A DNA stretch of 64,000 nt from positions 377 to 64,376 of the forward strand of contig JAZKXR010000003.1 in assembly GCA_045611705.1 (NCBI GenBank), in the 5' to 3' direction. This DNA is from Alphaproteobacteria bacterium (GTDB lineage: Bacteria > Pseudomonadota > Alphaproteobacteria > CAAHEQ01 > UBA3637). Positions 1 to 16,492 of this stretch are shown one piece after another (the stretch's first letter is position 1; each line of letters starts with the position of its first letter). A program made the position numbers and the translations under genes. The notes below the pieces were generated by a model. The model worked only from the letters and a program-made list of their open reading frames with translations, was not told the origin of the DNA and searched no databases.

Positions 1-2201
1 ATTCCCATCATCATCTTATAGTGAGATATGTGGCCTTGTTTATCAAAGATTTCTTTAAAAACCTTTTTATATTTTATAATTTGCACATCATCCAAAGGGG
101 AATAAAACTCATCACCCAAACAGGAATGAGATCCATCATTTATCCATGAGCACAGAGCTTGACAAATAATTTTATCATCTCCATCAAACTTATTTTCTAA
201 GTCATCTATTGAAATATTGCCAAGTGTCTTAAAATAATTTTCCAAAATTCGTCTCATATTATTGGGTAAAGAAATAGGATTAGGATTATCATCCTTCACC
301 TCTTGCCATAATACTTGATATGATGTGCTTATCGGATTTTTTTCATAATTAGTTATAATTGACTTGTTGTCTCTCTTTTTAATAATCCAATATGTTTTTG
401 TTTTTAATCTATTAGTCTTTTTAGTAGAATTAATATTTTTTTCAAAGGAAACTTCTTTGTAAAAATAAATATTATGAGTTAAAATCAAAACTTGATTGAT
501 ATTATTATATTTACTGTCTCTATCTATTATAATGTTTCTAATTAAAGAACTTACAACAAATAAGACTTCGTTATCCAGACTAGAAATAGGATCATCGAAA
601 ACAATTACTCTGTTATTATTTGTATCTGTTCCAGTTAAACTTCCTTCTATTAAACTATAAAAATATAAAAAAGCTAAAAAATTCTTTTCTCCTTCGCTTA
701 AAGTATTGTTGACTTTTGTTCCATCACTCCTGATTAGTTCATAATCGTTTTTATCAACCACTTTCAGCCGAAAACCTTGAAACCCAAAAGAATTTAATAT
801 TATATTGATTTTATCACAAGTTGGTTGAATACTTGTTATCTTCTGTTCTAAATTCTGTAATTCTTTTTTTGTTTTTATTTGTATAGCTTCTTTTTCTCTT
901 ATTTGTCGTTCTATATTATCAATAGCTGCATGTATATTTTTGTTTTTTTCCAAAAAAGATTTTATATCTACTTTAGACTTATCTAATATAAATTTCCAAA
1001 CTTTTCCTGTTAAATCTTTTCGTTCTGCTTCAAGATTATCAACAACAATATTATGATTGTTAATTTTTTCATTTGCTAAAGTTATTAAATTATTTATCTC
1101 ATTCAATGTATCTATAGTAAAATCAAGATTAAAAATTCTTGATGGCTCATTGTTTTTGTTTTTTATCTTTTCTAGATTATTTTGTATAACCTTATTAAGC
1201 GATGTTACATATTTTTCTAATTGTAATTTATCAATGAAATCATCTTCACTATTTGATAATTCATTTAAATATCGTAATATACTGTCTCCATTCTGCATAT
1301 AGTCGTTATATAAGTCCCTAATTTTTTTCAAATCCATAGAATAATTATCATTAAAATATTCTTTCAATTTTTTTGAAAAATCATCATGAATTTTTTGTTG
1401 ACAGAAAGGACATTTTCCGTCTGATTTTTCGTAATATTGTATACCGTTATGAACCCATGCGCTGTTATCCAATTTTTTTATAAAATCAGAAATATCCACA
1501 TCCTCGCTACCTATTATTATTTTTTGCAAAATACTATTATTTTCCAAAGCACTAAGATTTTCCACCATAACAGGGGTTATTAAAGTCTTTTTTGAAATAT
1601 TTTGAGAAAATATTTGTTTATATTTTGAAGATAAACTTTCTTCCGAATTTAATGGAGATTGATTTGATGTATTTTCTTCTATTGTTTTATTTTTAAATGC
1701 TTTTTTACTACCAAGATATCCCTCAAAACATTTTTTAAATTTTTCTTTATAGGGTAACATATTTCCCCATAAGTTATTTTCAATATATTGTTGTAATGTA
1801 TTTAGTTCACTTCTTTTACCAGTAATTGTGTCGTTTCCATTTAAGGTGCAGCACAATTTTTTTAAATCAATATCTAATTGTTTTAGATTTTCCTTTTTTT
1901 CATTTATTTTTTTCAATATTTCAATATTTTCATTACCTAAAGTAAAAATTCCATGTAAAACATCCTTTTCGAATAGGTGCTCTTTTACAAAATCAGAGTT
2001 ATAAACTAAGATATCTTTTTTTTGATTGTCTTTCCAGTGAATTAAACATGATGGATACTTGCTAGGATCTTGTAATACTCTGCTGATTGTTGTTTTTCCA
2101 CTACCATTTGATCCATATATATAATTGACATCAGCTAAATTTGATAGCGTTTGTTTTTCCGTATAGGTAGCTATATTATTTATTTCAATTCTCTCAATCA
2201 T
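1..2201 (-). CDS. RloC-like AAA_13/Rad50-type ABC ATPase with zinc hook and C-terminal nuclease region (3' end just beyond the window)
   Basis: Absent from the ORF track; read manually from ATG at 2201 (AGGA RBS): MIERIEINNIATY..YIYGSNGSGKTT (Walker A), DGKCPFCQQ (zinc hook), TLSEGEKNFLAFLYF (ABC signature), VIVFDDPISSLD (Walker B), ILTHN, RRILENYF, WINDGSH, HYKMMMG at the window edge. Confidence 0.85.
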   Translation of the reverse strand, partial: MIERIEINNIATYTEKQTLSNLADVNYIYGSNGSGKTTISRVLQDPSKYPSCLIHWKDNQKKDILVYNSDFVKEHLFEKDVLHGIFTLGNENIEILKKINEKKENLKQLDIDLKKLCCTLNGNDTITGKRSELNTLQQYIENNLWGNMLPYKEKFKKCFEGYLGSKKAFKNKTIEENTSNQSPLNSEESLSSKYKQIFSQNISKKTLITPVMVENLSALENNSILQKIIIGSEDVDISDFIKKLDNSAWVHNGIQYYEKSDGKCPFCQQKIHDDFSKKLKEYFNDNYSMDLKKIRDLYNDYMQNGDSILRYLNELSNSEDDFIDKLQLEKYVTSLNKVIQNNLEKIKNKNNEPSRIFNLDFTIDTLNEINNLITLANEKINNHNIVVDNLEAERKDLTGKVWKFILDKSKVDIKSFLEKNKNIHAAIDNIERQIREKEAIQIKTKKELQNLEQKITSIQPTCDKINIILNSFGFQGFRLKVVDKNDYELIRSDGTKVNNTLSEGEKNFLAFLYFYSLIEGSLTGTDTNNNRVIVFDDPISSLDNEVLFVVSSLIRNIIIDRDSKYNNINQVLILTHNIYFYKEVSFEKNINSTKKTNRLKTKTYWIIKKRDNKSIITNYEKNPISTSYQVLWQEVKDDNPNPISLPNNMRRILENYFKTLGNISIDDLENKFDGDDKIICQALCSWINDGSHSCLGDEFYSPLDDVQIIKYKKVFKEIFDKQGHISHYKMMMG

Positions 2202-2329: not shown

Positions 2330-5300
2330 TTACTCTGATTTTGCTTGTTTACGTATTTCCTTAAACAATTGAGCAGCTAAAACACTCATCATAGCTTTAT
2401 ATTTGTTTTTATTTTCAAACAGCGAATTATAAGCTTCTACTTGTTCATCAAATCCGGCATTTGCTGCATCACTAAAGAATTTAGGGAATATTGAAGAAAT
2501 AAATATTTTTTCTTCATCATCTTTACTAGATTTTATCGCTTTTTGTAATTTTTTATCAGCCATTAATTTATCGTGGATAGAGTTATAAATAACTTTATCA
2601 GCATCTGTTAAATCAATACCAAATTGCTCATTAATTTTTTTGATTACTTCATTTAATGGGTCTAACAAATGAGGTTCAGGAACTTGACCGACGCTGCTAC
2701 CTACGGAACACTCACCTTGTCCTTCTGCAAGTGAAATTGATCCTTTAAATACTTCTTTTAATTTATAATATTCTAATTTAAGTTTGTTTTTAATATCAAC
2801 AATAGGATCAGCTTCTTCCGATAAGAACTTACTTAAAGCATTGGCATATATAACTTCTTTATGCAGTTTCTCATTAAATAAACGATTAATTTGTGAAATG
2901 TAATGATACCATTTTACAAGATTACGAAGATTACGACGGAAATCATATCTTTCAACTTCTTCTAATTTACTATATTTTTCAACAGAAGGTTCTAACATAC
3001 TCGCAATTTTACCCAAATCTTTATCAGATTGTTTTCCTTCGCAGTAATAAAACTTTGCAAATTCTTCAACATCCTTTTCATTATATATATTAGCTTGAGC
3101 AATTTTTGCTTGAACTTCAAATATCAAGTCCGTATTAATAGCTTCTTTTAAGAATGTTTCAGTATAAAAAGGTTCAAAAGCTGTTTTAATCTCTTCAGTT
3201 GTATTGATAAAATCAAGGATAAAGGTGTCTTTTTTTCCATGACATACACGATTTAGGCGAGATAGAGTTTGAACAGCCTTAACACCTTTTAATTTTTTAT
3301 CAACAATCATTGTGTGAAGCAAAGGTTCATCAAATCCTGTTTGATATTTTTCAGCAACAACCAATACATTAAAATCATCGTGGAAGTCGTTTTTTAATTG
3401 ATTTTCGCTAATATGCGTTCCATCTTTACGAACATTTAATTGTGGTTCTGTATATTCAACACCACCATCTTTCACCGTACCAGAAAAAGCAACAAGAACA
3501 TCAATGTTTTCATAATCTTTTGCATTTGGTCCTTGTTTCATATCATCTAAATAACGACGCATTTCTTGTAAATAACGAACAGCAGCTAATCGAGATGACG
3601 CTACAATCATCATTTTTCCTTTACCACCAATAGCTTTGCTAGTGATGTCTTTGAAGGTTTCAATAATAATTTGTACTTTAGATGATATATTATATGGATG
3701 CAAATCAGCATATTTTTTAATAATTCTAGCTGCTGTAATACCTTTAACATCCGGATTATCTTCAGTTTTGTTGGCAATAGCATAACAAGTTTTATATGTC
3801 ATATAATTTTGTAAAACATCCATAATAAATCCTTCTTCAATAGCTTGTCGCATTGAATAGATATGGAATGGATGAAATTGGCCATTGCTGTCTTCAGAAC
3901 CAAAAATTTCTAATGTTTTTGGTTTTGGAGTAGCTGTAAAAGCAAAATATGATAAGTTTTTGTGCTTACCGTGTTTAAGCAATTCTTTTAATACAGGATC
4001 ATCTCTATCAATTTCTTCTTCAGATTTTTCCTCTAACTCTGCATATTGTTTGAGTGCTTCTTCTTCATCCGCTAAAGCAACTTTTAATTTTGCTGCAGCG
4101 GTTCCTGTTTGGCTTGAATGCGCTTCATCGCAAATAATTGCAAAATTTTTACCTTTTGCTTTTTCAATTTCATTGTATATAACAGGGAACTTTTGAAGAG
4201 TTGTAACAATAATTCTAGCCCCATTGTTTATTGCATCTTTTAGATCTTTTGCATGTTTATCTTTATCAATGTTTTCAATAAAGCCAGGAAGATGGTCCAT
4301 TCCATCAACAGTTGCTTGTAATTGTTGATCTAATACTCTACGGTCAGTTACAATAATCACGCTTTTAAACAAAGGCTCATTATTCTTTTTAAATATAGTG
4401 GCTAATCGATAAGCAGTCCAAGAAATAGAGTTGGATTTGCCTGAACCTGCACTGTGTTCAATCAAATAGCTCTTACCGGAACCATTTTGAGAAACATCTG
4501 CAATTAATTTTCTAACAACATCTAATTGATGATAACGAGGGAATATAAGCGTTTTCTTGGTAGTCTTTTTCCCTTTTTTATTTTCTTCTTTAATCTCTAA
4601 ATTGATATATTTTTGTAAAATATCCATCATAGATTCGCGTTGGAACACTTCTTCCCATAAGTAGCTTGTCATATATCCGTCAGGATTTGCTGGATTTCCT
4701 GCGCCACCGTCTTTTCCTGCTCCGTTAGAACCTTGGTTAAAAGGTAAGAAGAATGTATCTTCTTTGTTTAATTTTGTAGCCATAGATGCTTGACGCAAAT
4801 CAACACAGAAGAATGCCAAAATACGCGAATTAAACTTAAAACATAATTCTCTAGGATCCCGATCGTGACACCATTGATATTCAGCATTACGAATATCTTG
4901 TCCTGTGAGCTGATTTTTAAGTTCAAAAGCAAACAGTGGGATACCATTTAACGCAAGAACCATATCAACAGATTTACTATTTTTAGAAGAAAAGAACCAT
5001 TGGCGATAGCAATGCCAAATGTTATTGTTATAAAGCGCTACGTCGTCTTCATTTAGAGTGGATTCTGGTCTGAAATAACAAGCCTTAAAGTCAATACCTC
5101 CACATTTAAAGCCTTTTCTCATAACCTTTAAAATGCCATCACGTTCTACAGCATCATTAAAAAAGTTAATAAACTTCTTTTCTGTGTTTGTACCATAGTT
5201 AAACTCAAACTTTTTCCATGTTTTAGGTTGAGTTTTCTTAATAAACTCAATAAACGTATCCTTAAACAAGCCACATTCTGGGACGTATGTTGCATCACCC

Positions 5301-5383
5301 TTGGTATAACCTCCTGCACAGGATGTTAAAAAGCTTTCAATATCGGCTTCAAAATTCTTTTCTTTAGTTTCTGTTATTGCCAT
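2330..5383 (-). CDS. hsdR: Type I restriction enzyme R subunit
   Basis: 1017 aa; D-x-ELK nuclease motif (VDMVLALNGIPLFAFELKN), HSAGSGKS Walker A, DEAH, FTATP, QTLSRLNR. Confidence 0.95.
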   Translation of the reverse strand: MAITETKEKNFEADIESFLTSCAGGYTKGDATYVPECGLFKDTFIEFIKKTQPKTWKKFEFNYGTNTEKKFINFFNDAVERDGILKVMRKGFKCGGIDFKACYFRPESTLNEDDVALYNNNIWHCYRQWFFSSKNSKSVDMVLALNGIPLFAFELKNQLTGQDIRNAEYQWCHDRDPRELCFKFNSRILAFFCVDLRQASMATKLNKEDTFFLPFNQGSNGAGKDGGAGNPANPDGYMTSYLWEEVFQRESMMDILQKYINLEIKEENKKGKKTTKKTLIFPRYHQLDVVRKLIADVSQNGSGKSYLIEHSAGSGKSNSISWTAYRLATIFKKNNEPLFKSVIIVTDRRVLDQQLQATVDGMDHLPGFIENIDKDKHAKDLKDAINNGARIIVTTLQKFPVIYNEIEKAKGKNFAIICDEAHSSQTGTAAAKLKVALADEEEALKQYAELEEKSEEEIDRDDPVLKELLKHGKHKNLSYFAFTATPKPKTLEIFGSEDSNGQFHPFHIYSMRQAIEEGFIMDVLQNYMTYKTCYAIANKTEDNPDVKGITAARIIKKYADLHPYNISSKVQIIIETFKDITSKAIGGKGKMMIVASSRLAAVRYLQEMRRYLDDMKQGPNAKDYENIDVLVAFSGTVKDGGVEYTEPQLNVRKDGTHISENQLKNDFHDDFNVLVVAEKYQTGFDEPLLHTMIVDKKLKGVKAVQTLSRLNRVCHGKKDTFILDFINTTEEIKTAFEPFYTETFLKEAINTDLIFEVQAKIAQANIYNEKDVEEFAKFYYCEGKQSDKDLGKIASMLEPSVEKYSKLEEVERYDFRRNLRNLVKWYHYISQINRLFNEKLHKEVIYANALSKFLSEEADPIVDIKNKLKLEYYKLKEVFKGSISLAEGQGECSVGSSVGQVPEPHLLDPLNEVIKKINEQFGIDLTDADKVIYNSIHDKLMADKKLQKAIKSSKDDEEKIFISSIFPKFFSDAANAGFDEQVEAYNSLFENKNKYKAMMSVLAAQLFKEIRKQAKSE

Positions 5384-5393
5384 GATACATCTC

Positions 5394-5840
5394 CTAATCT
5401 TTCAAACCTAATTCTTTGCGGATTTGTTCCTTAAAATCTAAAATTTTTTTGCGATTTTTATCTGATGTTTTTTCCCAATGTTTTTTATAGCTATTGGCAC
5501 TTTCCATAATCTCACCAAATAGGGAATAAAACTTCTCTCTGATATTGACCGCCGCCCATATAGTCTTTGGTTCAATTGCATTAAAAGCATCTCTTGTTTC
5601 TTCACTAATATATTTTTTACTTTTATATGTACGGGCATCTTTTTCATATCGCATCACAAAATCATACATTTCCACATACAATTCTTCACGTTTATCACGC
5701 AAATGAAGTCTATCAGCACGTTTGTTGGCAAAATAGTTTTGAAACAGATTCAATAACCAGCCGATAACAACGCCAAGCAAGGTAAATGTGCCGCCAATTA
5801 TAACTTTATGATTTTCTTGATAAAATGCATCCCAATTCAT
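5394..5840 (-). CDS. Small protein with an N-terminal TM helix; paralog of 5843-6193
   Basis: Hydrophobic VIIGGTFTLLGVVIGWLL; HLRDKREELY and EQIRKELGLKD shared with the neighbouring gene; tightly coupled in the hsd operon. Confidence 0.75.
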   Translation of the reverse strand: MNWDAFYQENHKVIIGGTFTLLGVVIGWLLNLFQNYFANKRADRLHLRDKREELYVEMYDFVMRYEKDARTYKSKKYISEETRDAFNAIEPKTIWAAVNIREKFYSLFGEIMESANSYKKHWEKTSDKNRKKILDFKEQIRKELGLKD

Positions 5841-5842
5841 TT

Positions 5843-6193
5843 TTAGTCCTTTACTCCTAATTCTTTGCGCATCTGTTCAATTAAATTTTTTTCTTTTCCT
5901 TTGCCTTTTGCAGCTGAATCAAATAATGATTTAACCTTATTGCTGGCATATATATTGATTATAGGATAAAATTTGGATATAAGTTGCGGACTGTTTTTAA
6001 GGAAATCAGGCTCTTTCCTATGATTTTCTTGTGCCATTTCATAAGATGTCCGTAAAATACTTTGATAAGTTTCTTCTCTTTTTTCTCTTAAATGAACTTT
6101 TTGCTCTCCAACTGACTTGCGCCACTCAGTAAACCAAGAAACGCCACCGGTTGAAATTGCACCAACGATTACGCCTATAAGTGTATCATTCAT
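5843..6193 (-). CDS. Small protein with an N-terminal TM helix; paralog of 5394-5840
   Basis: LIGVIVGAISTGGVSWF; HLREKREETY and EQMRKELGVKD; TAATG overlap with the upstream PIN gene. Confidence 0.75.
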   Translation of the reverse strand: MNDTLIGVIVGAISTGGVSWFTEWRKSVGEQKVHLREKREETYQSILRTSYEMAQENHRKEPDFLKNSPQLISKFYPIINIYASNKVKSLFDSAAKGKGKEKNLIEQMRKELGVKD

Positions 6194-7320
6194 TATCTTA
6201 TGTCCTCCGGTTCTTTTTCTAAGTATTCATCTCCCTGATAGTCTCCAGAAAAATCAGGTCCCAATGAAATTGAATGATTAAATGTATAATCTTTATAATC
6301 GACTGATGCTACCTCACTATTTTCCAATGCCTCTTCATCTAATTTTATAGATATAATCAGATTGGTATTAAACTCTAATTCATCATTAAATACATTGTTC
6401 CCAATGACTATATCATCCCCTTCATCTGTAAGATAAAAAGAATATCCACTTTCTATAGTAAAATTAAGTTCTGCAGGAATAGAAAAAGATACTATTTTCT
6501 CTTCTTCATTATAATCAATGATTTCTATAGCGTTAGCATCTGGAAAGTAAACGTCTAGAAAATCAAATTCGAGATAATCTTCATTATATTTACAAGAACT
6601 TATAACATCTATATTTATTGATAGACGATCACTAGAATTCATTATTTCTTCATTAATGCGATTCATAAGATATTCATATTTAGCATAATCTGAAAATATG
6701 TCTTTTAAGAGTTGTAATATAAAATTTTCACTTTTATACAATGAAGATAGCGCTTCTTTTATTGTTTTAACACAAATTAAATTATCATTATTATGGCAAT
6801 ATGCTTGCCAATCCTTATCGCAAGAAATAACCAATACTTTCTTATTCTTTTCTGTTGCCCAGTTTTCAAGGGATTGAAGAGCTAATGCATCGGGAAATTC
6901 ATCTTTTTTCTTTTCAGAAAAAGGAGGTTTTTTATTGAAATATTGTTTGATAATTTTTTGTATGTCGATGTTTTGTGCAGGAATAACTTGTAATCCTGTT
7001 TTATTGGCATATTCTTCCAATCTTGTCCTAACTAAATCTCTTTCATCCCAAGTTTTAATCGTTTTAATTTTTTCTTCTGTTATATCTTTGTCAATTCTAT
7101 AAAATAATCCATTTTTTAGTGCTTTGTTATAATTGGAAATAGCACTTTTAGTCTTTTCTTCCATATGAGAAATTGTTTCTCTTAATACAATATCTGATAC
7201 AATAAATTTAATATCAGGAGTTCTAGAAAACTGCTGAAACTTAGCCAGTAGACCATTTTCTAAATTAAAGTTTTCCCCTTCAAAGATACTGGTATCTATG
7301 GTAATTGCATCAAAATCCAT
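6193..7320 (-). CDS. PIN-domain protein (DUF4935-like)
   Basis: ITIDTSIF, IVLRET, KKPPFSEKKKDEFPDALAL, VISCDKDW acidic PIN tetrad pattern; TAATG overlap with hsdS. Confidence 0.8.
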   Translation of the reverse strand: MDFDAITIDTSIFEGENFNLENGLLAKFQQFSRTPDIKFIVSDIVLRETISHMEEKTKSAISNYNKALKNGLFYRIDKDITEEKIKTIKTWDERDLVRTRLEEYANKTGLQVIPAQNIDIQKIIKQYFNKKPPFSEKKKDEFPDALALQSLENWATEKNKKVLVISCDKDWQAYCHNNDNLICVKTIKEALSSLYKSENFILQLLKDIFSDYAKYEYLMNRINEEIMNSSDRLSINIDVISSCKYNEDYLEFDFLDVYFPDANAIEIIDYNEEEKIVSFSIPAELNFTIESGYSFYLTDEGDDIVIGNNVFNDELEFNTNLIISIKLDEEALENSEVASVDYKDYTFNHSISLGPDFSGDYQGDEYLEKEPEDIR

Positions 7321-8618
7321 TATGCAACCTCCTTTTTGCCAGTTACATATTCATAGATTAAAGACTTTTTGTAGTTTGCCAATTCAGTTAAGAAGTTTTG
7401 CTTTTTCTCGATTAACACATCAATTTCAGAGCATTTTTCATCAAGATATTGTGCAATTTCTCGTTGTTCATCAAGTGGAGGTAAGGTTATTTTTAATTGT
7501 TCTAACACTCTCATTCCTATATTTTGCTGTGTTCCAAAGCTCCAATTATCCTCCAATTGTTTTTGGTATTTTTGAGATTGAACAAAATAAAATAAAAACT
7601 TGTAAAACAATATCGAAGGATTAACCCTAAATACAGCTAATGGAGACCAGATAGTAAATTTTTCTTCAGTATCAACTATGGAAACCCTGCCTGTAGTTGC
7701 CCCAGACTTAATCATTAACAAGTCATTTAACTTTGGAATATATTTCAAGCAGCATTCTTGATAAAATTCTTCAGAAATATAACCGCGTGCATGAGAGAAA
7801 TCAATGGTCCCTTTTCCGAACGACACAGCCTCTGCAGATATAAAAGGAATTCCTGCGTCAAATAGTTGTGGTGTTGTGTGTGGACCATCTGTAATTGGCA
7901 TAGATAAACAATGTAATGTTTTTCTAATCTCCCAATCCTCTGGAATTTCACCAATCCACTCAATATTACTGTCTTTCATAGCACGGTTTGGACGAATACC
8001 TTTGGTTACTGCTTCGGTGATAACGGATTGCTTGAGTTTTTTGTATTCTTCGATAGATTGTTCGGTTTTTCTGATAATTTCATCAATTGCCCCACATTTT
8101 TCATCTAAAAACATTGCAATCTTATTTTGCTCCGCTAACGAAGGAGATGGTAATTTGATATTGAACAGAGTATCATTGCCAAGCGTCCACCTATTATCAA
8201 AAGAAACACCTTTACCAAGTGAAAACAGAGCAAAACTCCAATACATGGTCTTAAAAAAATAGTCATAATAAACAGAATTATATCCTGTCTTATTTCGTAA
8301 ATTAACATAAGCAGGACTGATAACCCCCTCAACTTTTGAAATACTACAATTTGCACCACTGTATAAATCCATAGGATTTAATAATAAATCACCGATAGCA
8401 ACCGGATTATAATTATAATAACTAGCAGCTAATTGCCCCTCATTAGAGCTAATATCTCTTACTTTCACTCCTGATCTTGCTAAAGATAAAACAACAGGAT
8501 CTTCTTGTTCCGCTTTTGCATCCTTTTTTGTAAATATATATTTTACACGTTTTGTACTCCAAGTTTCAGGAATTTCACCGATCCACTCAATACCGCTGTC
8601 TTTCATTGTTCTGGACAT
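7320..8618 (-). CDS. hsdS: Type I R-M specificity subunit
   Basis: Two conserved repeats MKDS(G/N)IEWIGEIPE flanking two TRDs; LP(S)PxxEQ..I coiled-coil spacers. Confidence 0.95.
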   Translation of the reverse strand: MSRTMKDSGIEWIGEIPETWSTKRVKYIFTKKDAKAEQEDPVVLSLARSGVKVRDISSNEGQLAASYYNYNPVAIGDLLLNPMDLYSGANCSISKVEGVISPAYVNLRNKTGYNSVYYDYFFKTMYWSFALFSLGKGVSFDNRWTLGNDTLFNIKLPSPSLAEQNKIAMFLDEKCGAIDEIIRKTEQSIEEYKKLKQSVITEAVTKGIRPNRAMKDSNIEWIGEIPEDWEIRKTLHCLSMPITDGPHTTPQLFDAGIPFISAEAVSFGKGTIDFSHARGYISEEFYQECCLKYIPKLNDLLMIKSGATTGRVSIVDTEEKFTIWSPLAVFRVNPSILFYKFLFYFVQSQKYQKQLEDNWSFGTQQNIGMRVLEQLKITLPPLDEQREIAQYLDEKCSEIDVLIEKKQNFLTELANYKKSLIYEYVTGKKEVA

Positions 8619-8620
8619 TA

Positions 8621-10378
8621 TTATTCTCCTTTTGGAAACAAGCGGTTTAATGAGCTTGTTATATCAGTTTCGAGTGTATTTAGACGATTTATAATATCAG
8701 ATGTCTTTTCTGGTGCTTGGTATTTGTAGAAATAACGTGTCATTGGTATTTCATAACCAATTTTGGTTTTATTTGCATCAACCCAAGTTTCTGGTGCATA
8801 AGGTTTAACTTCGCGTTCAAAATAATCATTGATATCTTCATTCATTGGTACATTTTCAGTATCTCGTAAACTTGCATCAGCAACGGGTTTACCTTTTTTA
8901 AGGATAATGTTGCCATTTTCATCTTTTTGAGGCTGTTCTACAACGATCTTTTGATAACCAAAGTCAAAGGCGCTAAAAATCTTGCTTTCGCAATAAATAC
9001 CATTTTCATCACCATAAATTTTATCATTTTTGAACTCACCAAAGGCAGTTACAATGATTTTGCGACATTTATTGGTAATATCGTTGCGTTTGTTACCGAT
9101 GGATTTACGGCGAGGTTCAAAGCAATGGCTAGCATCTATTAGTTGAACTTTACCTTGCTTATGTGCAGGTTTATTTTTGTTTAACACCCAAACGTATGTT
9201 GCAATACCAGTGTTCATAAACTGGTCATTAGAAAGTTGAACAATGGCTTCTAACCAATCATTTTCTAGAATATAACGACGAATTTCAGAAGGTCCGGAAC
9301 CTGCATCTCCGCTAAATAATGGAGAACCATTTTGAATGATGGCCATTCTACCATCTTCTGCCATTTTAGCTAAACCATTCATCATAAATAGTTGTTGTCC
9401 ATCGGAAATCTTTGGAAGTCCGGGTTCAAAGCGTCCATCTTTACCTAAAGCATGTTCAGCTTCAACAGCTTTTTGTTCTTTCTTCCAATCAATACCAAAA
9501 GGAGGGTTAGAGATGATATATTTAAACTTAAAACCCTTAAATTTATCATCCGAAAGTGTATCACCATAACGCATATTGTCTGCTTCCCCACCGCGGATAA
9601 GCATATCGGCTTTTGCGATAGCGAATGTAGAGGGATTAAACTCTTGACCAAAACAAGTTACAATAGCTTCGGAATTTAACTGTTTAATGCGTTCTTCCAT
9701 ACAAGATAACATCTGGCTTGTACCCATTGTCATATCATAAACAGAAATATGTTCATCACGAAGATTTGCATCTGTTAACAAAAGATCTGTCATTAAATAG
9801 ATAATATCACGACTAGTAAAGTGAGCTCCGGCTTCTTCTCCATAAGATTCAGAAAAACGACGAACTAAATCCTCAAAAATATAGCCACAGTCCACAGCAC
9901 TAATTTTATCAGGACCAAGATAACCGTTGTTTGTATTAAATTCTTTAATAACCCAATAAAGTGTATCAGATTCAACCAAACGTTTGATAATATTTTCAAA
10001 TTCAAATTTGGCTAATACATCTTGAACATTCTGTGAGAAACCATTTAAGTAGTTTTCAAAGTTAGACTTAATATGGTCAGGATCTGCTAACAATTTCTCA
10101 AAAGTAAATTTACTGGTATTATAAAATTGATGATGACTGGCTTTACACATAAAACCGTCAATTACTTCAAAATGCTTTACTTTTTCATATTTTTCTTGGA
10201 TTTTATCATAGTAAGGCAACAAACAATCGTGAAAGCGTTTCACAACAGTCATTGGTAGGATAACCAATCCATATTCGTGTGGTTTAAATGGACCTGCTAA
10301 ATGATTTGCAATATTCCAAATAACTGTAGCTTTTTCTTGTAAGTTTTTACCAACTTGTTTAAATGCTTCGTTTGCCAT
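8621..10378 (-). CDS. hsdM: Type I R-M N6-adenine methyltransferase
   Basis: GAHFTSRDII, VYDMTMGTSQML (motif I), ISNPPF (motif IV). Confidence 0.95.
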   Translation of the reverse strand: MANEAFKQVGKNLQEKATVIWNIANHLAGPFKPHEYGLVILPMTVVKRFHDCLLPYYDKIQEKYEKVKHFEVIDGFMCKASHHQFYNTSKFTFEKLLADPDHIKSNFENYLNGFSQNVQDVLAKFEFENIIKRLVESDTLYWVIKEFNTNNGYLGPDKISAVDCGYIFEDLVRRFSESYGEEAGAHFTSRDIIYLMTDLLLTDANLRDEHISVYDMTMGTSQMLSCMEERIKQLNSEAIVTCFGQEFNPSTFAIAKADMLIRGGEADNMRYGDTLSDDKFKGFKFKYIISNPPFGIDWKKEQKAVEAEHALGKDGRFEPGLPKISDGQQLFMMNGLAKMAEDGRMAIIQNGSPLFSGDAGSGPSEIRRYILENDWLEAIVQLSNDQFMNTGIATYVWVLNKNKPAHKQGKVQLIDASHCFEPRRKSIGNKRNDITNKCRKIIVTAFGEFKNDKIYGDENGIYCESKIFSAFDFGYQKIVVEQPQKDENGNIILKKGKPVADASLRDTENVPMNEDINDYFEREVKPYAPETWVDANKTKIGYEIPMTRYFYKYQAPEKTSDIINRLNTLETDITSSLNRLFPKGE

Positions 10379-10838: not shown

Positions 10839-11549
10839 ATGCAAAAAGGTGAAATTATAAGATATGTTGATATGACGATTGAAGAAGGAATGAATCTTCA
10901 ACGTGGTATGAATTACAATATTCAAGGCAGAGCTTATCATATCATTTTGATGAGCGTTAGACCTAATGCTCCATATGCAGATGAATGGATTGAAGAAGAA
11001 AATACCATCATATATGAAGGCCATGATGTTCAAAAGAATTATAATTATACAGATTTACCTTGCGATCAAGTTGACCAACCAATGAACACACCTTCTGGTG
11101 GATTGACTGAAAATGGAAAATTTTACGAGGCAGCCATGCGCCACAAAAATGATGGAGCAAAAGCCGAAGTAGTTAAAGTATATGAGAAGATACGCGATGG
11201 TATTTGGGTATATAATGGCTTTTTTAAATTGGTTGATGCTTGGATCCAAAAATCTGGGAAGCGTGATGTATTTAAATTCAAGCTTGTGATGATAGAAGAT
11301 GAAACAGAGTCAGAAAAAGCACTAGATGTTTCAAATTTAGAGATGGAACACAATAGACTTATTCCAACATCTGTTAAAGCCTTAGTTTGGGCTAGAGATA
11401 AGGGAAAATGCGTCAAATGCGGATCTAATAAAAATCTGCATTATGACCACATTATCCCATTCTCAAAAGGAGGCTCATCCAAGGACGCAAACAACATTCA
11501 ATTACTTTGTCAAACTTGTAACTTAAGAAAACACGATAAAATTGAATAG
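10839..11549 (+). CDS. HNH endonuclease with a probable SRA-like N-terminal domain (type IV restriction candidate)
   Basis: C-terminal CVKC..LHYDHIIPFSKGGSS..NNIQLLCQTCN; N-terminal PYADE..TIIYEG resembles SRA-HNH enzymes. Confidence 0.75.
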   Translation: MQKGEIIRYVDMTIEEGMNLQRGMNYNIQGRAYHIILMSVRPNAPYADEWIEEENTIIYEGHDVQKNYNYTDLPCDQVDQPMNTPSGGLTENGKFYEAAMRHKNDGAKAEVVKVYEKIRDGIWVYNGFFKLVDAWIQKSGKRDVFKFKLVMIEDETESEKALDVSNLEMEHNRLIPTSVKALVWARDKGKCVKCGSNKNLHYDHIIPFSKGGSSKDANNIQLLCQTCNLRKHDKIE

Positions 11550-11552
11550 CAT

Positions 11553-12326
11553 TTATAACCACTCTCCATAATTAGCAAGTCGGCTTAATGCGAAATGCCA
11601 GCCGCCAATCCGGCGACCCTTTTGATCACACCAGCCGGTAGAGTAGTAATGGTCAAAGAAACGGTCCAGATCTACCGTCAATTCTTTTTCCATTACATAT
11701 CGCCGCACCTCATCCTCATCTGGGGGAAGTTGGTCAAAATGATAGGGCATCACAGACTTTATCTGCCGAGCAAATACACTGCCGATTGAGCGTAACTCAC
11801 CGCTTGATGTATTTTGAAAATGTTGAGGCGTGTATAAATTTTCTTTCCTTATAACATTATTCCCTTCTTTACTTTCTTTATTTATGGGTTCATCGGGGGC
11901 TGGGGCAGGATTTTCTTCGGGCGATGGTCGGGCGGACTTTCTCTTTTTATTTTCCATCAAGCCCATATATTTCAAGTAGTTTGGCATCTTTATAAGTAGG
12001 GCGTTGTTAACGCGTATTGTCTCCACTTCATGAATGTCCTTTAACTTCTTCAACAGGCGCTTGATTTCGTCTCGGGATTTATGAAGGGCATCCGCCAAAT
12101 GCTGATAGCTGGTGACTAGTTCCCCTTTCTGAACTTCATTGGTTCCCCACTGGCGGATTGTATAATTTGCCCGCATTAAAAGATATGTGAACAGTTTCCA
12201 AGCCGCATCATCATAAAACAGAGGCCAATTGGTGAACTCACGATCCAACATAATATAACCGTTACCGGATGGAATTGTGTCCTGAAACGAGAAAGAAAGA
12301 GATATCGGGTGTCTCAGTTTTTTCAT
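11553..12326 (-). CDS. Phage/IME replication initiator-like protein (wHTH plus C-terminal domain)
   Basis: WKLFTYLLMRANY..GELVTSYQHLADAL..EIKRLLKKL and a C-terminal RFFDHYYSTGW motif typical of replisome-organiser proteins. Confidence 0.6.
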   Translation of the reverse strand: MKKLRHPISLSFSFQDTIPSGNGYIMLDREFTNWPLFYDDAAWKLFTYLLMRANYTIRQWGTNEVQKGELVTSYQHLADALHKSRDEIKRLLKKLKDIHEVETIRVNNALLIKMPNYLKYMGLMENKKRKSARPSPEENPAPAPDEPINKESKEGNNVIRKENLYTPQHFQNTSSGELRSIGSVFARQIKSVMPYHFDQLPPDEDEVRRYVMEKELTVDLDRFFDHYYSTGWCDQKGRRIGGWHFALSRLANYGEWL

Positions 12327-12335
12327 GAAACCTCC

Positions 12336-14042
12336 CTATACTTTGGGAAAACCGAATAGTTTTCTTTGTTCGGTCCAACTGGCCGGGATAGAGGCTCTGA
12401 GCAATTCTCGGGCGGTCATTGTTTTGGGTTGAGCTCCCCGTAAAATGGCATCAATAATATCCGGTGCCAAAAAGGTGAGCCGAATTTGCGCCCCGATATA
12501 GGCCGGATCCTGATGATATACTTCGGCCAGTTCATGCAGGTTTAAGTTCTTGGCTTCTTGGGTTTCACGATAAGTAAAACCGTTGGCTAAAATCTTAATG
12601 AGATAACGGTCTTCTTTCTTGGATGGCTTTTCAGCTGAGGTCAAATACAGCATATCCGATACCGTTTCGGGCAAATGAATCTCCTTGCTCCCACGATGTG
12701 TAATCAGGTTAAAGGGGACGGTAGATTCCATCAGTTCCGGTTTTGATTCATTAGGTTTCAAACTGGCTTTCAGGCGTTTGTCCATCAGGTGAAGGGCCAA
12801 CGGTTTCCAGACCACAATAATTTTATCGGCAAAAATCGTTACCCCGTGAACCAGCAGGCTGACTATTTTTTCCTTTTGTGCGCCGGTCAGTTGTTGAAAA
12901 ACAGAATCCGTTTCACGCATTGCATAAAAGACTTCGCTTTCTTTCAAGTCCGGTTGCACTTGGCAGGCTTCCTGCGCCAGCGCCTGTAACACATACGGGG
13001 ATTTAATCAGCGGATTGAGCAAGTCCATCACCAAATTATCCAACAAGTGCATGGGGATGGCATTCAGCCGACATGAATGAGGTCCGTATTTTTTGTGGGT
13101 GCTATCGGTATAATAATAGTATCGTTTTCCATTTTTTAAAGAATATCTGGGATAAAGTTTTTGCTCACAACATCCGCAAGATAAAATCCCGCGGAGTAAT
13201 CCGTTTTCCTCATTTTTACTGACCGGTTTTAACCGCCGCCGCCGTATTTTTTGTGTATTTGATTTGAATAGGTTTTGGGCGGATTCAAATGTTTCTTTAT
13301 CAATAATCGGTTGATGTTGGCCCGGGAAAGAAGTCCCTTTATGAGTAATCTCACCGATATAAACACGATTAGTAAGCATACTCCTTAAAAAGGTCCAGCC
13401 GGGAACTTTTCCCCGGAAAGTGCAATTTTCCCGTAAAAGGGCGTGCCCCACCATGGATAAATTACCGGATGATAAAAACAGTTCATAAACGTGCTTGACC
13501 TTTTCGGCATCTTCCGGCACAACCACCAGTTTTTTATTTTCACCTTTATAACCAAACGGGGGAACACCGCCGACCCACATGCCTTTTTTCTTGGATGCCA
13601 GAATCTTATCGCGGATACGCTCACCGCTGATTTCCCGTTCAAACTGCGCAAAAGAAAGAAGCACATTCAACATCAATCGCCCCATGCTATCTGCCGTATT
13701 GATATTTTGTGTCACCGATACAAAAGAGCAGTGGTGTTTATCAAAAATTTCAATCATCTTGGAAAAATCCAAAAGAGATCTGGTCAACCGGTCAATTTTA
13801 TAAATAACCACCATATCCACTTTATTCGCTTGAATATCGGCCAGTAATTCTTGAAAAGCCGGTCGGTTCATATTACCGCCGGAATAACCACCGTCATCAT
13901 AATGTTTGTCTATCAATTCCCATCCTTGATGACGTTGCGCCTTGATATAATTTTCCCCGGCTTCCCGTTGAGCTTCCAGGGTATTAAATTGTTTTTCTAA
14001 TCCTTCGTCTGTTGATTTACGTGTATAGATTGCACATCTCAT
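12336..14042 (-). CDS. Large serine recombinase
   Basis: CAIYTRKST, DDGGYSGGNMNRPAF, KIDRLTRS, recombinase domain, CGCC..C zinc ribbon. Confidence 0.92.
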   Translation of the reverse strand: MRCAIYTRKSTDEGLEKQFNTLEAQREAGENYIKAQRHQGWELIDKHYDDGGYSGGNMNRPAFQELLADIQANKVDMVVIYKIDRLTRSLLDFSKMIEIFDKHHCSFVSVTQNINTADSMGRLMLNVLLSFAQFEREISGERIRDKILASKKKGMWVGGVPPFGYKGENKKLVVVPEDAEKVKHVYELFLSSGNLSMVGHALLRENCTFRGKVPGWTFLRSMLTNRVYIGEITHKGTSFPGQHQPIIDKETFESAQNLFKSNTQKIRRRRLKPVSKNEENGLLRGILSCGCCEQKLYPRYSLKNGKRYYYYTDSTHKKYGPHSCRLNAIPMHLLDNLVMDLLNPLIKSPYVLQALAQEACQVQPDLKESEVFYAMRETDSVFQQLTGAQKEKIVSLLVHGVTIFADKIIVVWKPLALHLMDKRLKASLKPNESKPELMESTVPFNLITHRGSKEIHLPETVSDMLYLTSAEKPSKKEDRYLIKILANGFTYRETQEAKNLNLHELAEVYHQDPAYIGAQIRLTFLAPDIIDAILRGAQPKTMTARELLRASIPASWTEQRKLFGFPKV

Positions 14043-15048: not shown

Positions 15049-15810
15049 ATGAAGAAATTTTACAGGAATTTATTTCAAGTATATTTGTTTATGGCCCGGG
15101 CTTTATTTCCGAAAGATTCAGCCCTGCAACGCGAATTTTTACTGATAAAGGTCTCAGGTCTTGAAAAGGAAATGGCCGAAGTTTTTGAAAAATTGGGTGG
15201 GGTTGCCCTTTTACGCCTGTGCCGATCGGCCAAAGAGATGAAAAAATTACAAGAGCATATTCAAACAACCGATTGGGCTTATGTCATGCGGATGTTAAAG
15301 ACAATGCAGTCTATGCAACAGGAACCCAAATTGGCAGGTAAAATCAGCCTCAACAAAGCGGCATTTGTTTTGGATAAAGACATCAAAGAGGGAAAAGCTA
15401 AAGATTCCCAAAAGAATAATGCACCCCGTTATAAAGATATCTGGCGTCAATATCGGGGTGTGGTCCATCTGATAGAGGCCCTTCAAATTATGAAAATGCA
15501 GTATCTGGAATTGACAGGCGATCCTATCCCTTTTGAAGCCTTTTTGGCGTTGGCGCTGGATCACCTGAATTTGGCCGCCTATCAACAAGGGGAAGAATTG
15601 AAGAAAATGCTGGAAGGTCATACCAAAAAGCCCATTGTGCCGGCGGATGAATTTTTTGTGATAGAAAAACCAAAACTGGCCGAAAATGAGTTAGCCACTG
15701 CCTTGGTGAAAGAGTGCCTTTTGACAGACCCGTCACTCAGTAAGAAAATCAGTAAATACCGCGCCCCTGTCTTTGATTATGGGCAATTTGACATTCTAAG
15801 CGATAATTAA
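15049..15810 (+). CDS. Hypothetical protein
   Basis: 253-aa ORF with AGGAG RBS; no recognised motif. Confidence 0.6.
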   Translation: MKKFYRNLFQVYLFMARALFPKDSALQREFLLIKVSGLEKEMAEVFEKLGGVALLRLCRSAKEMKKLQEHIQTTDWAYVMRMLKTMQSMQQEPKLAGKISLNKAAFVLDKDIKEGKAKDSQKNNAPRYKDIWRQYRGVVHLIEALQIMKMQYLELTGDPIPFEAFLALALDHLNLAAYQQGEELKKMLEGHTKKPIVPADEFFVIEKPKLAENELATALVKECLLTDPSLSKKISKYRAPVFDYGQFDILSDN

Positions 15811-15821
15811 AATTGCCTAGC
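15769..15821. repeat. Direct repeat copy 1, left of the AbiE pair
   Basis: GTCTTTGATTATGGGCAATTT-GACATTCTAAGCGATAATTAAAATTGCCTAGC; matches 17387-17440 with a few mismatches and one indel. Confidence 0.85.
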
Positions 15822-15856
15822 TGATGTCATATTTTATCTATTTTGTAAAAAAATGC

Positions 15857-15903
15857 TTGATTTTCTCCTAAAACTCTAATATAATTGGAGTAATAGGAGA
15901 AAA
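15857..15903 (+). promoter_or_regulatory. Sigma70 promoter of abiEi-abiEii overlapped by a long inverted repeat (operator)
   Basis: TTGATT-N17-TATAAT (15857/15880); TTTTCTCCTA-AA-ACTCTAAT-ATA-ATTGGAGT-AA-TAGGAGAAAA. Confidence 0.75.
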
Positions 15904-15904
15904 T

Positions 15905-16492
15905 ATGATATATTCTTTTGACGATTTAAAAACAAAATATAGTAATTACGCCAAAATTTACGATAAAATACGATATGAAGTAAAGGCAGGCCGCTTGATA
16001 CCTATTGCACGTGAATTATATGAAACCGATCCTACGACCGATGGACAATATCTGGCCGGACGTATTTTCGGACCGTCGTATTTATCTTTTGATTATGCAC
16101 TGTATGTTTATTCCCTCATTCCGGAAACTGTTTATAAGACATATACATCTGCCACATTTAACAAGCGCAGAAAAAAGAAGTATCAAAATAATTTTGGTTT
16201 GTTTACATACAGGGATGTTCCGGCAGAAGTATACCCTCTTGCCGTATTAATTCATGAGGAGAATGGCTATTCTTACCAAATTGCAACGCCCGAAAAGGCA
16301 TTATGCGATAAATTATACACTTTACCGCCCATCAAGAATTTGACAGAATTAAAGGAACTTTTGTTTGAAGATTTGCGGATAGATGAAGGAGAGTTCGCCA
16401 AGCTTAATAAGGAAGTATTAGAAAAAATAGCTCCTCTTTATCATTCAACCAATCTTCACATGCTTAGTAAGCTGATTAGGAGAACTTTATAA
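15905..16492 (+). CDS. AbiEi-like antitoxin (type IV TA)
   Basis: PSYLSFDYALYVYSLIPE..TSAT..IATPEKALCDKLY. Confidence 0.85.
   Translation: MIYSFDDLKTKYSNYAKIYDKIRYEVKAGRLIPIARELYETDPTTDGQYLAGRIFGPSYLSFDYALYVYSLIPETVYKTYTSATFNKRRKKKYQNNFGLFTYRDVPAEVYPLAVLIHEENGYSYQIATPEKALCDKLYTLPPIKNLTELKELLFEDLRIDEGEFAKLNKEVLEKIAPLYHSTNLHMLSKLIRRTL

What the first reader, a model, noticed from the sequence alone, without database searches (positions are those of the whole stretch)
5394..7320. PIN nuclease plus two paralogous membrane proteins wedged between hsdS and hsdR
Seen: three genes translationally coupled into the hsd operon (TAATG overlaps, 2-nt gap). The two small genes are clear paralogs (N-terminal TM helix; HLR(D/E)KREE.Y; EQ(I/M)RKELG(L/V)KD). 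Known: the hsdS-hsdR interval is where PrrC sits in EcoprrI. Inference: a candidate uncharacterised R-M-coupled abortive module of PIN RNase plus membrane effectors or sensors.
Basis: partly seen in the sequence, partly recalled or inferred. Interest (0 to 1): 0.62.

Follow-up and report, generated by a model that had tools for sequence, protein, structure and literature searches.

The report
Two swappable passenger cassettes in restriction operon
A mobile type I restriction-modification operon of an uncultured gut bacterium carries, between its S and R genes, a PIN-family nuclease gene and a tandem pair of small membrane-anchored proteins; these are two independently exchangeable add-ons, probably extra anti-phage genes, not one three-gene system.

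Summary
On the minus strand the order is hsdM, hsdS, a PIN_12/DUF4935 gene, two paralogous small membrane-protein genes, then hsdR, joined by ATAATG overlaps and 2-nt and 10-nt gaps.

The PIN and the membrane proteins assort independently:
- On R-M backbones whose HsdR and HsdM are 99% identical, the slot holds either PIN+TM or TM+TM.
- The same A+B membrane pair, with the same spacing, recurs without the PIN in other samples.
- The closest PIN relatives (58-67% identical) sit in the same slot with no membrane gene.
- The exact trio was found only in this window.

The PIN keeps all four catalytic acids. It belongs to a family with one tested single-gene anti-phage member (Cosus).

The membrane proteins form an unnamed family of about 355 clusters. 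Each has an N-terminal anchor and a cytoplasmic four-helix bundle. N- and C-modules are shuffled at an invariant KREE.Y motif. Most sampled copies lie just upstream of hsdR. Others lie beside Mrr, GmrSD or RhuM genes, in a prophage, or away from any R-M genes.

Genes embedded in R-M operons are a known theme (PrrC, Ronin, "guilt by embedding"). The membrane family itself is new and untested. Function is inferred, not shown.

The parts
8621..10378 (-). hsdM (585 aa), first gene of the operon
   Evidence: Pfam N6_Mtase E 7e-54 and HsdM_N E 2.5e-21. PADLOC MTase_I E 1e-216.
7320..8618 (-). hsdS (432 aa). Its last codons carry the SD (GGAGG, 7328-7332) for whichever gene follows.
   Evidence: Pfam Methylase_S. 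PADLOC Specificity_I E 3.5e-101. The GAGGT..(C/T)(A/T)TAATG junction is shared by all ten PIN-bearing loci examined.
6193..7320 (-). PIN_12/DUF4935 protein (375 aa). It has an N-terminal PIN nuclease domain (about residues 1-200) and a C-terminal helix plus long antiparallel beta-sheet domain (about 216-352). It is a discrete cassette of about 1.15 kb.
   Evidence: PF16289 E 4.2e-29. D9, T10, E48, D144 and D168 are invariant in 48 of 48 homologs. AF2 mean pLDDT is 90.9. Cassette boundaries against L060 lie at about window 7317 and 6166.
5843..6193 (-). TM-A (116 aa): N-terminal membrane anchor plus a short cytoplasmic helical domain. Module type Na x C2.
   Evidence: Family profile E 5.0e-39. 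Paralog of TM-B at E 2e-9. Hydropathy, module typing. No hit at a credible level in any of the four libraries; the best were a PADLOC Cas10d model at E 0.0034 and PHROGs hits at E >= 0.017.
5394..5840 (-). TM-B (148 aa): N-terminal membrane anchor continuous with a stalk helix, plus three helices forming a cytoplasmic four-helix bundle. Module type Nb x C0. Always the hsdR-proximal copy in tandem pairs.
   Evidence: Family profile E 4.6e-53. AF2 mean pLDDT 90.5 with helices 3-72, 80-95, 98-119 and 122-143. The same A+B pair with a 2-nt gap between the copies and a 10-nt gap to hsdR occurs in L059-L062; L064 holds a cut-off first copy with the same spacing, and L063 shows only a 23-codon stub upstream of TM-B.
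2330..5383 (-). hsdR (1017 aa), last gene of the R-M operon. Its start lies 10 nt after TM-B, preceded by GGAG (5391-5394).
   Evidence: Pfam HSDR_N, ResIII, SWI2_SNF2 and T1R_D3-like. PADLOC REase_I E 8.5e-41.
3..2201 (-). Context: an AAA_13 / PDC-S06 (RloC/PrrC-like) ATPase gene just downstream of hsdR, in a second variable cargo slot.
   Evidence: Pfam AAA_13 E 8e-168. PADLOC PDC-S06 E 1.5e-250 and the PrrC model E 7e-16 on residues 476-721. The CPFC motif is visible.

Best explanation
The hsdS-hsdR interval of this mobile type I R-M operon is an insertion slot holding two unrelated, independently exchangeable passenger cassettes. They are expressed from the operon through translational coupling; the SD for the first passenger lies inside the 3' end of hsdS.

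Cassette 1 is a PIN_12/DUF4935 protein. It has a complete PIN active site and a more variable C-terminal beta-rich domain. I read it as a self-contained nuclease-type anti-phage gene of the kind shown for Cosus, with the C-terminal domain as the likely sensor or regulator. This function is inferred.

Cassette 2 is a tandem pair of proteins from an unnamed family. Each has an N-out/C-in membrane anchor and a cytoplasmic four-helix bundle. I read the pair as a membrane-acting accessory defence module, either an effector or a sensor-effector, possibly working as an A/B hetero-oligomer through GxxxG-type anchor helices. This function is also inferred.

Shown: gene identities, coupling, paralogy, independent assortment, cassette boundaries, module shuffling and enrichment in R-M slots. 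Inferred: defence function, topology, oligomerisation and mechanism.
For: Independent assortment:
- Slot contents found were PIN alone, PIN+1 TM, PIN+2 TM (window only), 1 TM, 2 TM, TM+GmrSD and TM+RhuM.
- L015 against L023 and L025: HsdR and HsdM are 99% identical but the slot contents differ.
- PIN identity is uncoupled from the backbone. Window against L020: HsdR 90%, PIN 28%. Window against L001: HsdR 36%, PIN 66%.
- The PIN is a clean indel relative to L060.
- A 357-bp indel with ends in the KREE codons converts A+B into the single hybrid gene of L011.

PIN:
- Catalytic D9, E48, D144 and D168 are invariant.
- The C-domain is less conserved than the PIN domain, 39% against 54% mean identity.
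- Relatives at 35% identity or less are stand-alone genes.
- An enterobacterial plasmid homolog sits next to an AbiH gene.
- Cosus, a PIN12-domain single gene, blocks T7, and T12A, D14A and D96A mutations weaken it (bioRxiv 10.1101/2024.07.02.601719).

TM family:
- 160 clusters at 90% identity and 355 at 50% identity, almost all 75-180 aa.
- N-types and C-types are recombined.
- Neighbours are restriction genes in most sampled architectures.
- Precedents for small membrane effectors tied to nuclease immunity: RonA of Ronin (bioRxiv 10.1101/2023.04.06.535777). Csx28 with Cas13b is cited from my own knowledge.
- Embedded genes are enriched for defence (bioRxiv 10.1101/2024.01.29.577857).
Against: - No experiment bears on either gene, and no PADLOC v2.0.0 model matches either one credibly (none for the PIN or TM-B; TM-A only a Cas10d model at E 0.0034).
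- The sample of loci is biased by how queries were chosen, so the fractions are not population frequencies.
- In every sampled PIN relative of at least 36% identity the gene starts on the hsdS stop codon, across three backbones with only 36-47% identical HsdR. That could reflect a functional tie to HsdS/HsdM rather than mere hitch-hiking.
- TM genes keep a fixed 10-11-nt spacing to hsdR in most loci, which could mean a dedicated partnership with HsdR.
- The family was not found in IMG/VR viral contigs.
- Fold searches gave nothing informative.
Confidence: 0.55

Rival explanations
1. Guard model, like PrrC or Ronin. One or both cassettes are held inactive by the R-M complex and released when a phage anti-restriction protein (Ocr, ArdA or Stp-like) blocks the enzyme. 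The PIN then cuts RNA, or the TM proteins depolarise the membrane, aborting the infection.
For: - Both occupy the prrC position.
- All sampled PIN relatives of at least 36% identity overlap the hsdS stop codon on three divergent backbones.
- No antitoxin-like gene accompanies the PIN.
- RonA is a single-TM protein linked to hsdS/hsdM. It is toxic alone, neutralised by HsdMS, and triggered by Ocr, ArdA or Aop1.
- Most sampled TM architectures lie inside R-M operons.
Against: - PIN_12 relatives function as, or occur as, stand-alone genes.
- A TM relative 50% identical to TM-B is seen on hundreds of contigs beside rplM-rpsI, with no R-M gene within 7 kb.
- Others lie beside Mrr or in a prophage.
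- TM bundle types vary on HsdR backbones that are at least 89% identical.
- An RloC-like gene already sits after hsdR.
Confidence: 0.22
2. One reading: PIN plus the two TM proteins form one obligate three-component abortive module, with a nuclease effector and membrane sensors or effectors.
For: - The three genes are contiguous and translationally coupled.
- PIN+TM pairs recur in six other architectures.
Against: - Each occurs in the slot without the other, including on 99%-identical backbones.
- The A+B pair recurs without PIN at identical spacing.
- The exact trio was seen only in this genome.
- PIN alleles are swapped independently of the TM genes.
Confidence: 0.07
3. The TM proteins are accessory parts of the restriction enzyme rather than defence effectors. 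They could be a membrane tether that places HsdR at the DNA-entry site, or a regulator of HsdR assembly or restriction alleviation.
For: - The position immediately 5' of hsdR and the 10-11-nt spacing are constant in most loci.
- Predicted topology puts the bundle in the cytoplasm.
- The invariant KREE.Y and C-terminal RKELG.KD motifs could be a docking surface.
- The neighbours are all restriction nucleases: HsdR, Mrr and GmrSD.
Against: - Absent from clade III operons and from most type I systems.
- Copy number (1-3) and module shuffling look like arms-race variation rather than a structural subunit.
- Relatives occur without any restriction gene nearby.
Confidence: 0.1
4. The TM proteins are superinfection-exclusion proteins that block phage DNA entry at the inner membrane, carried as morons by mobile elements.
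For: - They are small N-anchored membrane proteins.
- One copy lies inside a prophage (L033).
- A triple copy lies directly after an integrase (L022).
- Allelic mosaicism is seen.
Against: - No relatives were found in IMG/VR viral contigs.
- The bulk of the protein is predicted to be cytoplasmic.
- Most sampled copies lie inside R-M operons rather than prophages.
Confidence: 0.06

Closest known systems
Cosus (Brc24), a PIN12-domain single-gene anti-phage cassette of mobile integrons (bioRxiv 10.1101/2024.07.02.601719)
   Same: Both carry the PIN_12 Pfam domain. In Cosus, T12 and D14 are needed for full defence. The window protein has a nearly invariant T7 and an invariant D9 in the same N-terminal IT.DTS motif; the residue correspondence is my inference. 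Both are carried as discrete cassettes on mobile elements.
   Different: Cosus sits in integron arrays, whereas this gene sits in the hsdS-hsdR slot. No activity is known for this clade.
PrrC in EcoprrI (and RloC), anticodon nucleases embedded in or next to type I R-M loci
   Same: The genomic position is the same, between hsdS and hsdR (prr gene order from my own knowledge). The logic of a nuclease as a second line behind restriction is the same, and PrrC is almost exclusively embedded in type I R-M.
   Different: The fold is unrelated: PIN_12 rather than an ABC-ATPase plus a HEPN-type nuclease. There was no hit to the PrrC model. The wider PIN_12 family is mostly stand-alone. In this window the RloC/PrrC-like protein is a separate gene after hsdR.
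Ronin (RonA + HsdS + HsdM), decoy immunity (bioRxiv 10.1101/2023.04.06.535777)
   Same: A small single-TM protein is tightly linked to type I R-M genes. This gives a plausible model of a membrane effector caged by the R-M complex.
   Different: RonA is 61 aa, while these proteins are 116-148 aa with a folded cytoplasmic four-helix bundle. Ronin lacks hsdR, while this operon is complete. ronA homologs are reported as always linked to hsdS/hsdM, while this family also occurs elsewhere. Sequence homology was not tested.
Genes embedded in multi-gene defence systems ('guilt by embedding', Payne et al., bioRxiv 10.1101/2024.01.29.577857)
   Same: It is the same general phenomenon: BREX, DISARM and type I R-M operons host nested cassettes, many of which are defence genes.
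   Different: The PIN and TM-B match no model of PADLOC-DB v2.0.0, which includes the PDC candidates; TM-A gives only a weak Cas10d hit (E 0.0034).
VapBC-type PIN toxin-antitoxin pairs
   Same: PIN fold and acidic active site. The best-probability fold match is VapC11 (6a7v, probability 0.97).
   Different: There is no VapB-like antitoxin gene. The protein is 375 aa with an extra domain. The downstream TM genes are dispensable neighbours.

Membership tests
PIN_12 / DUF4935 (PF16289) | Match to the Pfam model above its gathering score | tested here: met
   102.6 bits against a cut-off of 32, E 4.2e-29, covering model positions 1-172 of 172.
PIN_12 / DUF4935 (PF16289) | Conserved acidic residues of the PIN active site | tested here: met
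   D9, E48, D144 and D168, plus T10, are invariant in 48 of 48 aligned homologs.
PIN_12 / DUF4935 (PF16289) | A protein of about 350-390 aa with an additional C-terminal alpha/beta region of unknown fold (Matelska et al. 2017, PMC5499597) | tested here: met
   Full-length alignment to named DUF4935/PIN proteins of Nostoc and Xanthomonas covers 86-97% of the query. The AF2 model shows a separate C-terminal domain with no significant PDB match.
PIN_12 / DUF4935 (PF16289) | PIN-like alpha/beta/alpha fold by structure comparison | tested here: inconclusive
   Foldseek gives VapC11 at probability 0.97 and PRORP at 0.84, but all E-values are above 1e-3.
Cosus (Brc24) anti-phage system | Sequence homology to Brc24 beyond the shared Pfam domain, and anti-phage activity | not tested
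   The Brc24 sequence is not held. The paper states only that it has a PIN12 domain. Activity needs experiments.
PrrC-type R-M-embedded anticodon nuclease | ABC-ATPase N-domain plus C-terminal anticodon-nuclease domain | tested here: not met
   The slot genes give no hit to PADLOC PrrC or to Pfam AAA_13. Those hits belong to the separate gene at 3-2201.
PrrC-type R-M-embedded anticodon nuclease | Location between hsdS and hsdR and near-exclusive embedding in type I R-M | tested here: inconclusive
   Met for the clade of at least 36% identity, where all sampled architectures are in the slot. Not met for the wider family, which is stand-alone in Nostoc, Xanthomonas, plasmids and 4 relatives in the same order.
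Ronin / RonA | Small single-TM protein tightly linked to hsdS and hsdM | tested here: met
   One predicted N-terminal TM helix each. Both lie in the operon with hsdM and hsdS.
Ronin / RonA | About 61 aa; system lacks hsdR; homologs always linked to hsdS/hsdM | tested here: not met
   The proteins are 116 and 148 aa with a folded bundle. hsdR is present. Family members occur away from any hsd gene.
Ronin / RonA | Toxic alone, neutralised by HsdMS, triggered by anti-restriction proteins | not testable with these tools
   Needs expression experiments.
VapBC toxin-antitoxin | Adjacent small antitoxin gene (VapB-like, DNA-binding) that co-varies with the toxin | tested here: not met
   The upstream gene is hsdS. 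The downstream TM genes have no DNA-binding domain and are absent in L001-L010.

The most novel reading that the evidence does not exclude
The membrane-anchored four-helix-bundle family may be a previously unrecognised accessory class of restriction systems. In this reading it is a RonA-like but larger membrane effector, acting as an A/B hetero-oligomer, that is caged by a complete type I enzyme (and by Mrr or GmrSD in other loci). When phage anti-restriction proteins disable the nuclease, it is released and collapses the membrane. The PIN_12 clade that always overlaps the hsdS stop codon would be a second, RNA-directed guard of HsdMS. A single operon would then hold restriction plus two different guard effectors, with an RloC-like third effector just downstream of hsdR.
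Probability: 0.18. Interest if true: 0.7.

Novelty: new variant of a known kind. Interest (0 to 1): 0.45.

Why it matters
Passenger genes in R-M operons have been a productive source of new immune mechanisms (PrrC, Ronin, the embedded-candidate screens).

This work defines a precise, recurrent insertion slot. The slot runs from the hsdS stop codon, with its built-in SD, to the hsdR ribosome-binding site. It shows that the slot is filled combinatorially.

It also delimits an unnamed family of small membrane proteins that is enriched there. The family has about 355 clusters at 50% identity and is found mainly in gut metagenomes. It has clear testable features: the anchor helix, the KREE.Y motif, the RKELG.KD tail and A/B pairing.

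If the family proves to be a membrane effector tied to restriction nucleases, it would extend the Ronin "caged effector" idea to complete R-M systems. If not, the result is still a clean example of cassette exchange inside a defence operon. For the PIN gene the value is modest: it places a clade of a family with one tested member (Cosus) in a new, conserved context.

Tried and rejected
- Library scans of the two small proteins (Pfam, NCBIfam, PHROGs, PADLOC) gave no hit at a credible level.
- Profile searches of PDB sequences gave nothing below E 0.06.
- Foldseek gave no match at E <= 1e-3 for the PIN model against PDB or for the TM-B model against PDB and BFVD. The TM-B hits are generic helical bundles. 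The PIN C-domain gives only weak ARC6/PARC6 and JHBP/Takeout-like hits, which I do not interpret.
- I looked for domain fusions among longer relatives. They only add N-terminal TM helices or helical tails, with no Pfam domain.
- The IMG/VR scan for the TM family found none.
- tblastn of TM-B against plasmids found no match.
- The promoter/terminator scan returned counts equal to shuffles.
I could therefore not check read support, expression or sample origin.
- A toxin-antitoxin reading (PIN toxin, TM antitoxin) was rejected because each occurs without the other.
- A misassembly explanation for the tandem paralogs was rejected. The copies are only 28% identical, and the same pair recurs in independent samples.
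- Single-linkage clustering of N-modules merged all types. It was replaced by assignment to reference modules.
Full report
**What is there.**
Window positions 2330-10378 carry one co-directional gene string on the minus strand:
- hsdM, 8621-10378
- hsdS, 7320-8618
- a 375-aa ORF, 6193-7320
- a 116-aa ORF, 5843-6193 (TM-A)
- a 148-aa ORF, 5394-5840 (TM-B)
- hsdR, 2330-5383

Pfam and PADLOC confirm the three hsd genes. The 375-aa protein is a PIN_12/DUF4935 protein (PF16289, E 4.2e-29).

- hsdS/PIN: GGAGGTTGCATAATG
- PIN/TM-A: ATAATG
- TM-A/TM-B: TAA-AA-ATG
- TM-B/hsdR: TAGGAGATGTATCATG

Just downstream of hsdR lies an AAA_13 / PDC-S06 (RloC/PrrC-like) gene. Upstream lie an SRA-HNH gene and a large serine recombinase.

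The genome is a MAG of about 0.99 Mb in 11 contigs. Related loci come from uncultured gut Alphaproteobacteria.

**The two small proteins.**
- They are paralogs: BLASTP gives E 2e-9 and 28% identity.
- They share HLR(D/E)KREE.Y and a C-terminal RKELG(L/V)KD.
- Each has one N-terminal hydrophobic helix followed by a basic flank, which suggests N-out/C-in topology.
- With a 67-sequence alignment, AlphaFold2 models TM-B at mean pLDDT 90.5. One long helix (3-72) forms the anchor and stalk, and three further helices complete a four-helix bundle.
- No library names the family at a credible level.
- No PDB or BFVD structure resembles it significantly.
- The family is real and sizeable: 160 clusters at 90% identity and 355 clusters at 50% identity at E <= 1e-3. 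Almost all members are 75-180 aa.
- Longer relatives only add N-terminal membrane helices or helical tails.
- The family is rare among species representatives: 2 of 80 genomes of the order and 2 of 401 of the class.
- It is mosaic. Three N-terminal module types combine with at least three C-terminal types at the invariant KREE.Y motif. Counts were Na x C0 33, Na x C1 29, Na x C2 11, Nb x C0 26, Nb x C1 4 and Nc x C0 6.
- TM-A is Na x C2 and TM-B is Nb x C0.

**The PIN protein.**
- In a 48-sequence alignment D9, T10, E48, D144 and D168 are invariant.
- The AF2 model has mean pLDDT 90.9. It shows a PIN-type alpha/beta domain and a C-terminal domain in which a helix is wrapped by a long antiparallel sheet.
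- Foldseek finds no significant PDB match. The best-probability hits to the N-domain are VapC11 and PRORP.
- The C-domain is less conserved than the PIN domain: 39% against 54% mean identity within the R-M-embedded clade.
- Matelska et al. 2017 (PMC5499597) described DUF4935 as of unknown function and usually monocistronic, and noted generic PIN-R-M links.
- A preprint reports that Cosus (Brc24), a PIN12-domain gene cassette of mobile integrons, gives complete resistance to T7. Mutations T12A, D14A and D96A weaken it.

**Context in other genomes: the central result.**
I sampled 58 loci from other genomes or samples with six collection tools (look-up of encoding contigs, the search for related loci on genome and on metagenome contigs, the genome search, the fetch from genomes, the fetch of an annotated region).

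PIN relatives:
- All sampled relatives of at least 36% identity begin on the hsdS stop codon and lie upstream of hsdR.
- This holds on three R-M backbones whose HsdR proteins are only 36-47% identical to one another.
- Relatives of 35% identity or less are stand-alone genes. Examples are in Nostoc, Xanthomonas, plasmids and four genomes of the same order that lack this hsdR.
- One enterobacterial plasmid homolog lies next to an AbiH gene.

Slot contents found between hsdS and hsdR:

| Slot content | Loci |
|---|---|
| PIN alone | L001-L010 |
| PIN + 1 TM | L011, L012-14, L015, L057, L020, L021 |
| PIN + 2 TM | this window only |
| 1 TM | L044-48, L050 |
| 2 TM | L023-25, L051, L053-55, L059-62 |
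| TM + GmrSD | L028 |
| TM + RhuM | L056 |

Evidence that the two cassettes are independent:
- L015 (PIN+TM) and L023 and L025 (TM+TM) have 99% identical HsdR and HsdM.
- Window against L020: HsdR 90% identical, PIN 28%. Window against L001: HsdR 36%, PIN 66%.
- The A+B pair of the window recurs without PIN in independent samples, with the same 2-nt and 10-nt spacings.
- DNA comparison with L060 shows similarity running from the hsdS 3' end straight into TM-A about 28 nt after its start. The PIN is therefore a clean indel of about 1.15 kb.
- The single 136-aa gene of L011 is the N-half of TM-A joined to the C-half of TM-B. The difference is a 357-bp indel, and the two flanking alignments overlap by 32 nt of L011 at the KREE-coding stretch.

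TM-family genes outside the slot:
- After an Mrr gene in Gastranaerophilales (L026, L027).
- As a triple or double copy before a RhuM gene (L022, L049).
- Inside a prophage that also carries a PIN_12 gene about 7 kb away (L033).
- Next to a 459-aa coiled-coil membrane protein beside rplM-rpsI. This is the member seen on the most contigs, and no R-M gene lies within 7 kb.
- None were found in IMG/VR contigs.

**Interpretation.**
The three genes are not one system. The hsdS-hsdR interval is a slot whose first occupant is translated from an SD embedded in the last hsdS codons. The slot is filled combinatorially by at least two unrelated cassettes.

The region after hsdR is a second variable slot. 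It holds the AAA_13 gene here and other cargo elsewhere:
- a CBASS-like set in L011
- OLD+UvrD (Gabija-like) in L012, L044 and L060
- HamA plus a helicase in L059
- T5orf172 in L005 and L008

This is the published pattern of defence genes embedded in R-M operons.

For the PIN, the most economical reading is a self-contained nuclease-type defence gene like Cosus, with its variable C-domain as sensor or regulator. The strict hsdS-overlap position in this clade keeps a PrrC-like guard role open.

For the TM pair, I favour a membrane-acting accessory defence module. The closest functional precedent is RonA of Ronin. RonA is a 61-aa single-TM protein that is toxic alone, caged by HsdMS, and released by Ocr, ArdA or Aop1. 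Against a strict Ronin-type mechanism:
- These proteins are larger.
- They have a folded bundle.
- They sit in a complete operon.
- They have close relatives far from any hsd gene.

A role as a membrane tether or regulator of HsdR, or as a superinfection-exclusion protein, cannot be excluded.

All functional statements are inference. What is shown is identity, coupling, paralogy, cassette boundaries, independent assortment, module shuffling and enrichment next to restriction nucleases.

**Limits.**
- The locus sample is biased by my choice of queries, so counts are not frequencies.
- The Brc24 and RonA sequences were not at hand.

**Verdict.**
This is a new variant of a known kind. Interest is moderate and rests mainly on the unnamed, R-M-slot-enriched membrane-protein family.

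Noticed in passing
window 3-2201 (-): An AAA_13 / PADLOC PDC-S06 protein with a CPFC zinc-hook-like motif lies directly after hsdR. Its C-terminal region hits the PrrC model at E 7e-16. It is RloC-like and is a plausible backup anticodon nuclease for this R-M system.
   Followed up: partly
L011:11622-14345, L012:11633-15083, L044:9388-12233, L059:9534-11521, L005:11154-11846: The position just after hsdR is a second variable cargo slot on otherwise similar operons. It holds patatin+SMODS+E2-like (CBASS-like) genes, OLD-family+UvrD (Gabija-like) genes, HamA plus a helicase (Hachiman-like), or T5orf172. In the window it holds the AAA_13 gene.
   Followed up: partly
L001:2623-4207, L012:4808-5719, L015:4078-5707, L044:3999-4640, L057:1259-3546: In relatives the hsdM-hsdS interval is a third slot. 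It holds unnamed proteins of 213-230 aa and 303-320 aa, with weak PDC-S42, Abi_alpha and Csx28-model hits only. The window has no insert there.
   Followed up: partly
L011:8128-8538 versus window 5708-6064: The single 136-aa gene of L011 equals the N-half of TM-A plus the C-half of TM-B. The 357-bp difference has both ends in the shared KREE-coding stretch, as expected for homologous recombination between the tandem paralogs. The direction of the event was not established.
   Followed up: yes
L034:5563-7444 (and L035-L043): The TM-family member seen on the most contigs (P0137) is paired with a 459-aa coiled-coil protein. I see two hydrophobic stretches in its sequence near residues 290-340. 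The pair lies next to rplM-rpsI, with no R-M gene within 7 kb.
   Followed up: partly
L033:7964-8377 and 15556-16301: A prophage-like region (my reading of the ORF sizes and order; genes not checked against any library) carries a TM-family gene as an apparent moron. It also carries a PIN_12 gene (E 1.2e-19) about 7 kb away at the locus edge.
   Followed up: no
L058:3980-6041 (Salmonella plasmid pSC138): An enterobacterial plasmid PIN_12-type protein of 366 aa is immediately followed by a gene annotated as AbiH family. The PIN-domain hit recurs on other E. coli, Salmonella, Shigella, Klebsiella and Proteus plasmids, whose neighbouring genes were not looked at.
   Followed up: no
window 10839-14042: An SRA-HNH nuclease gene lies divergent from hsdM. 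Next come a 257-aa gene and a large serine recombinase. The same block (DUF2924, recombinase, 263 aa, SRA-HNH) precedes the operon in L011, so the R-M operon is cargo of a serine-recombinase element.
   Followed up: partly
L053:1941-4951, L054:2292-5302, L021:1891-3648, L006:2960-5099: Some metagenome copies have hsdR or hsdM split into two ORFs. These are frameshifts or assembly errors, and they suggest decay of the R-M genes in some hosts.
   Followed up: no
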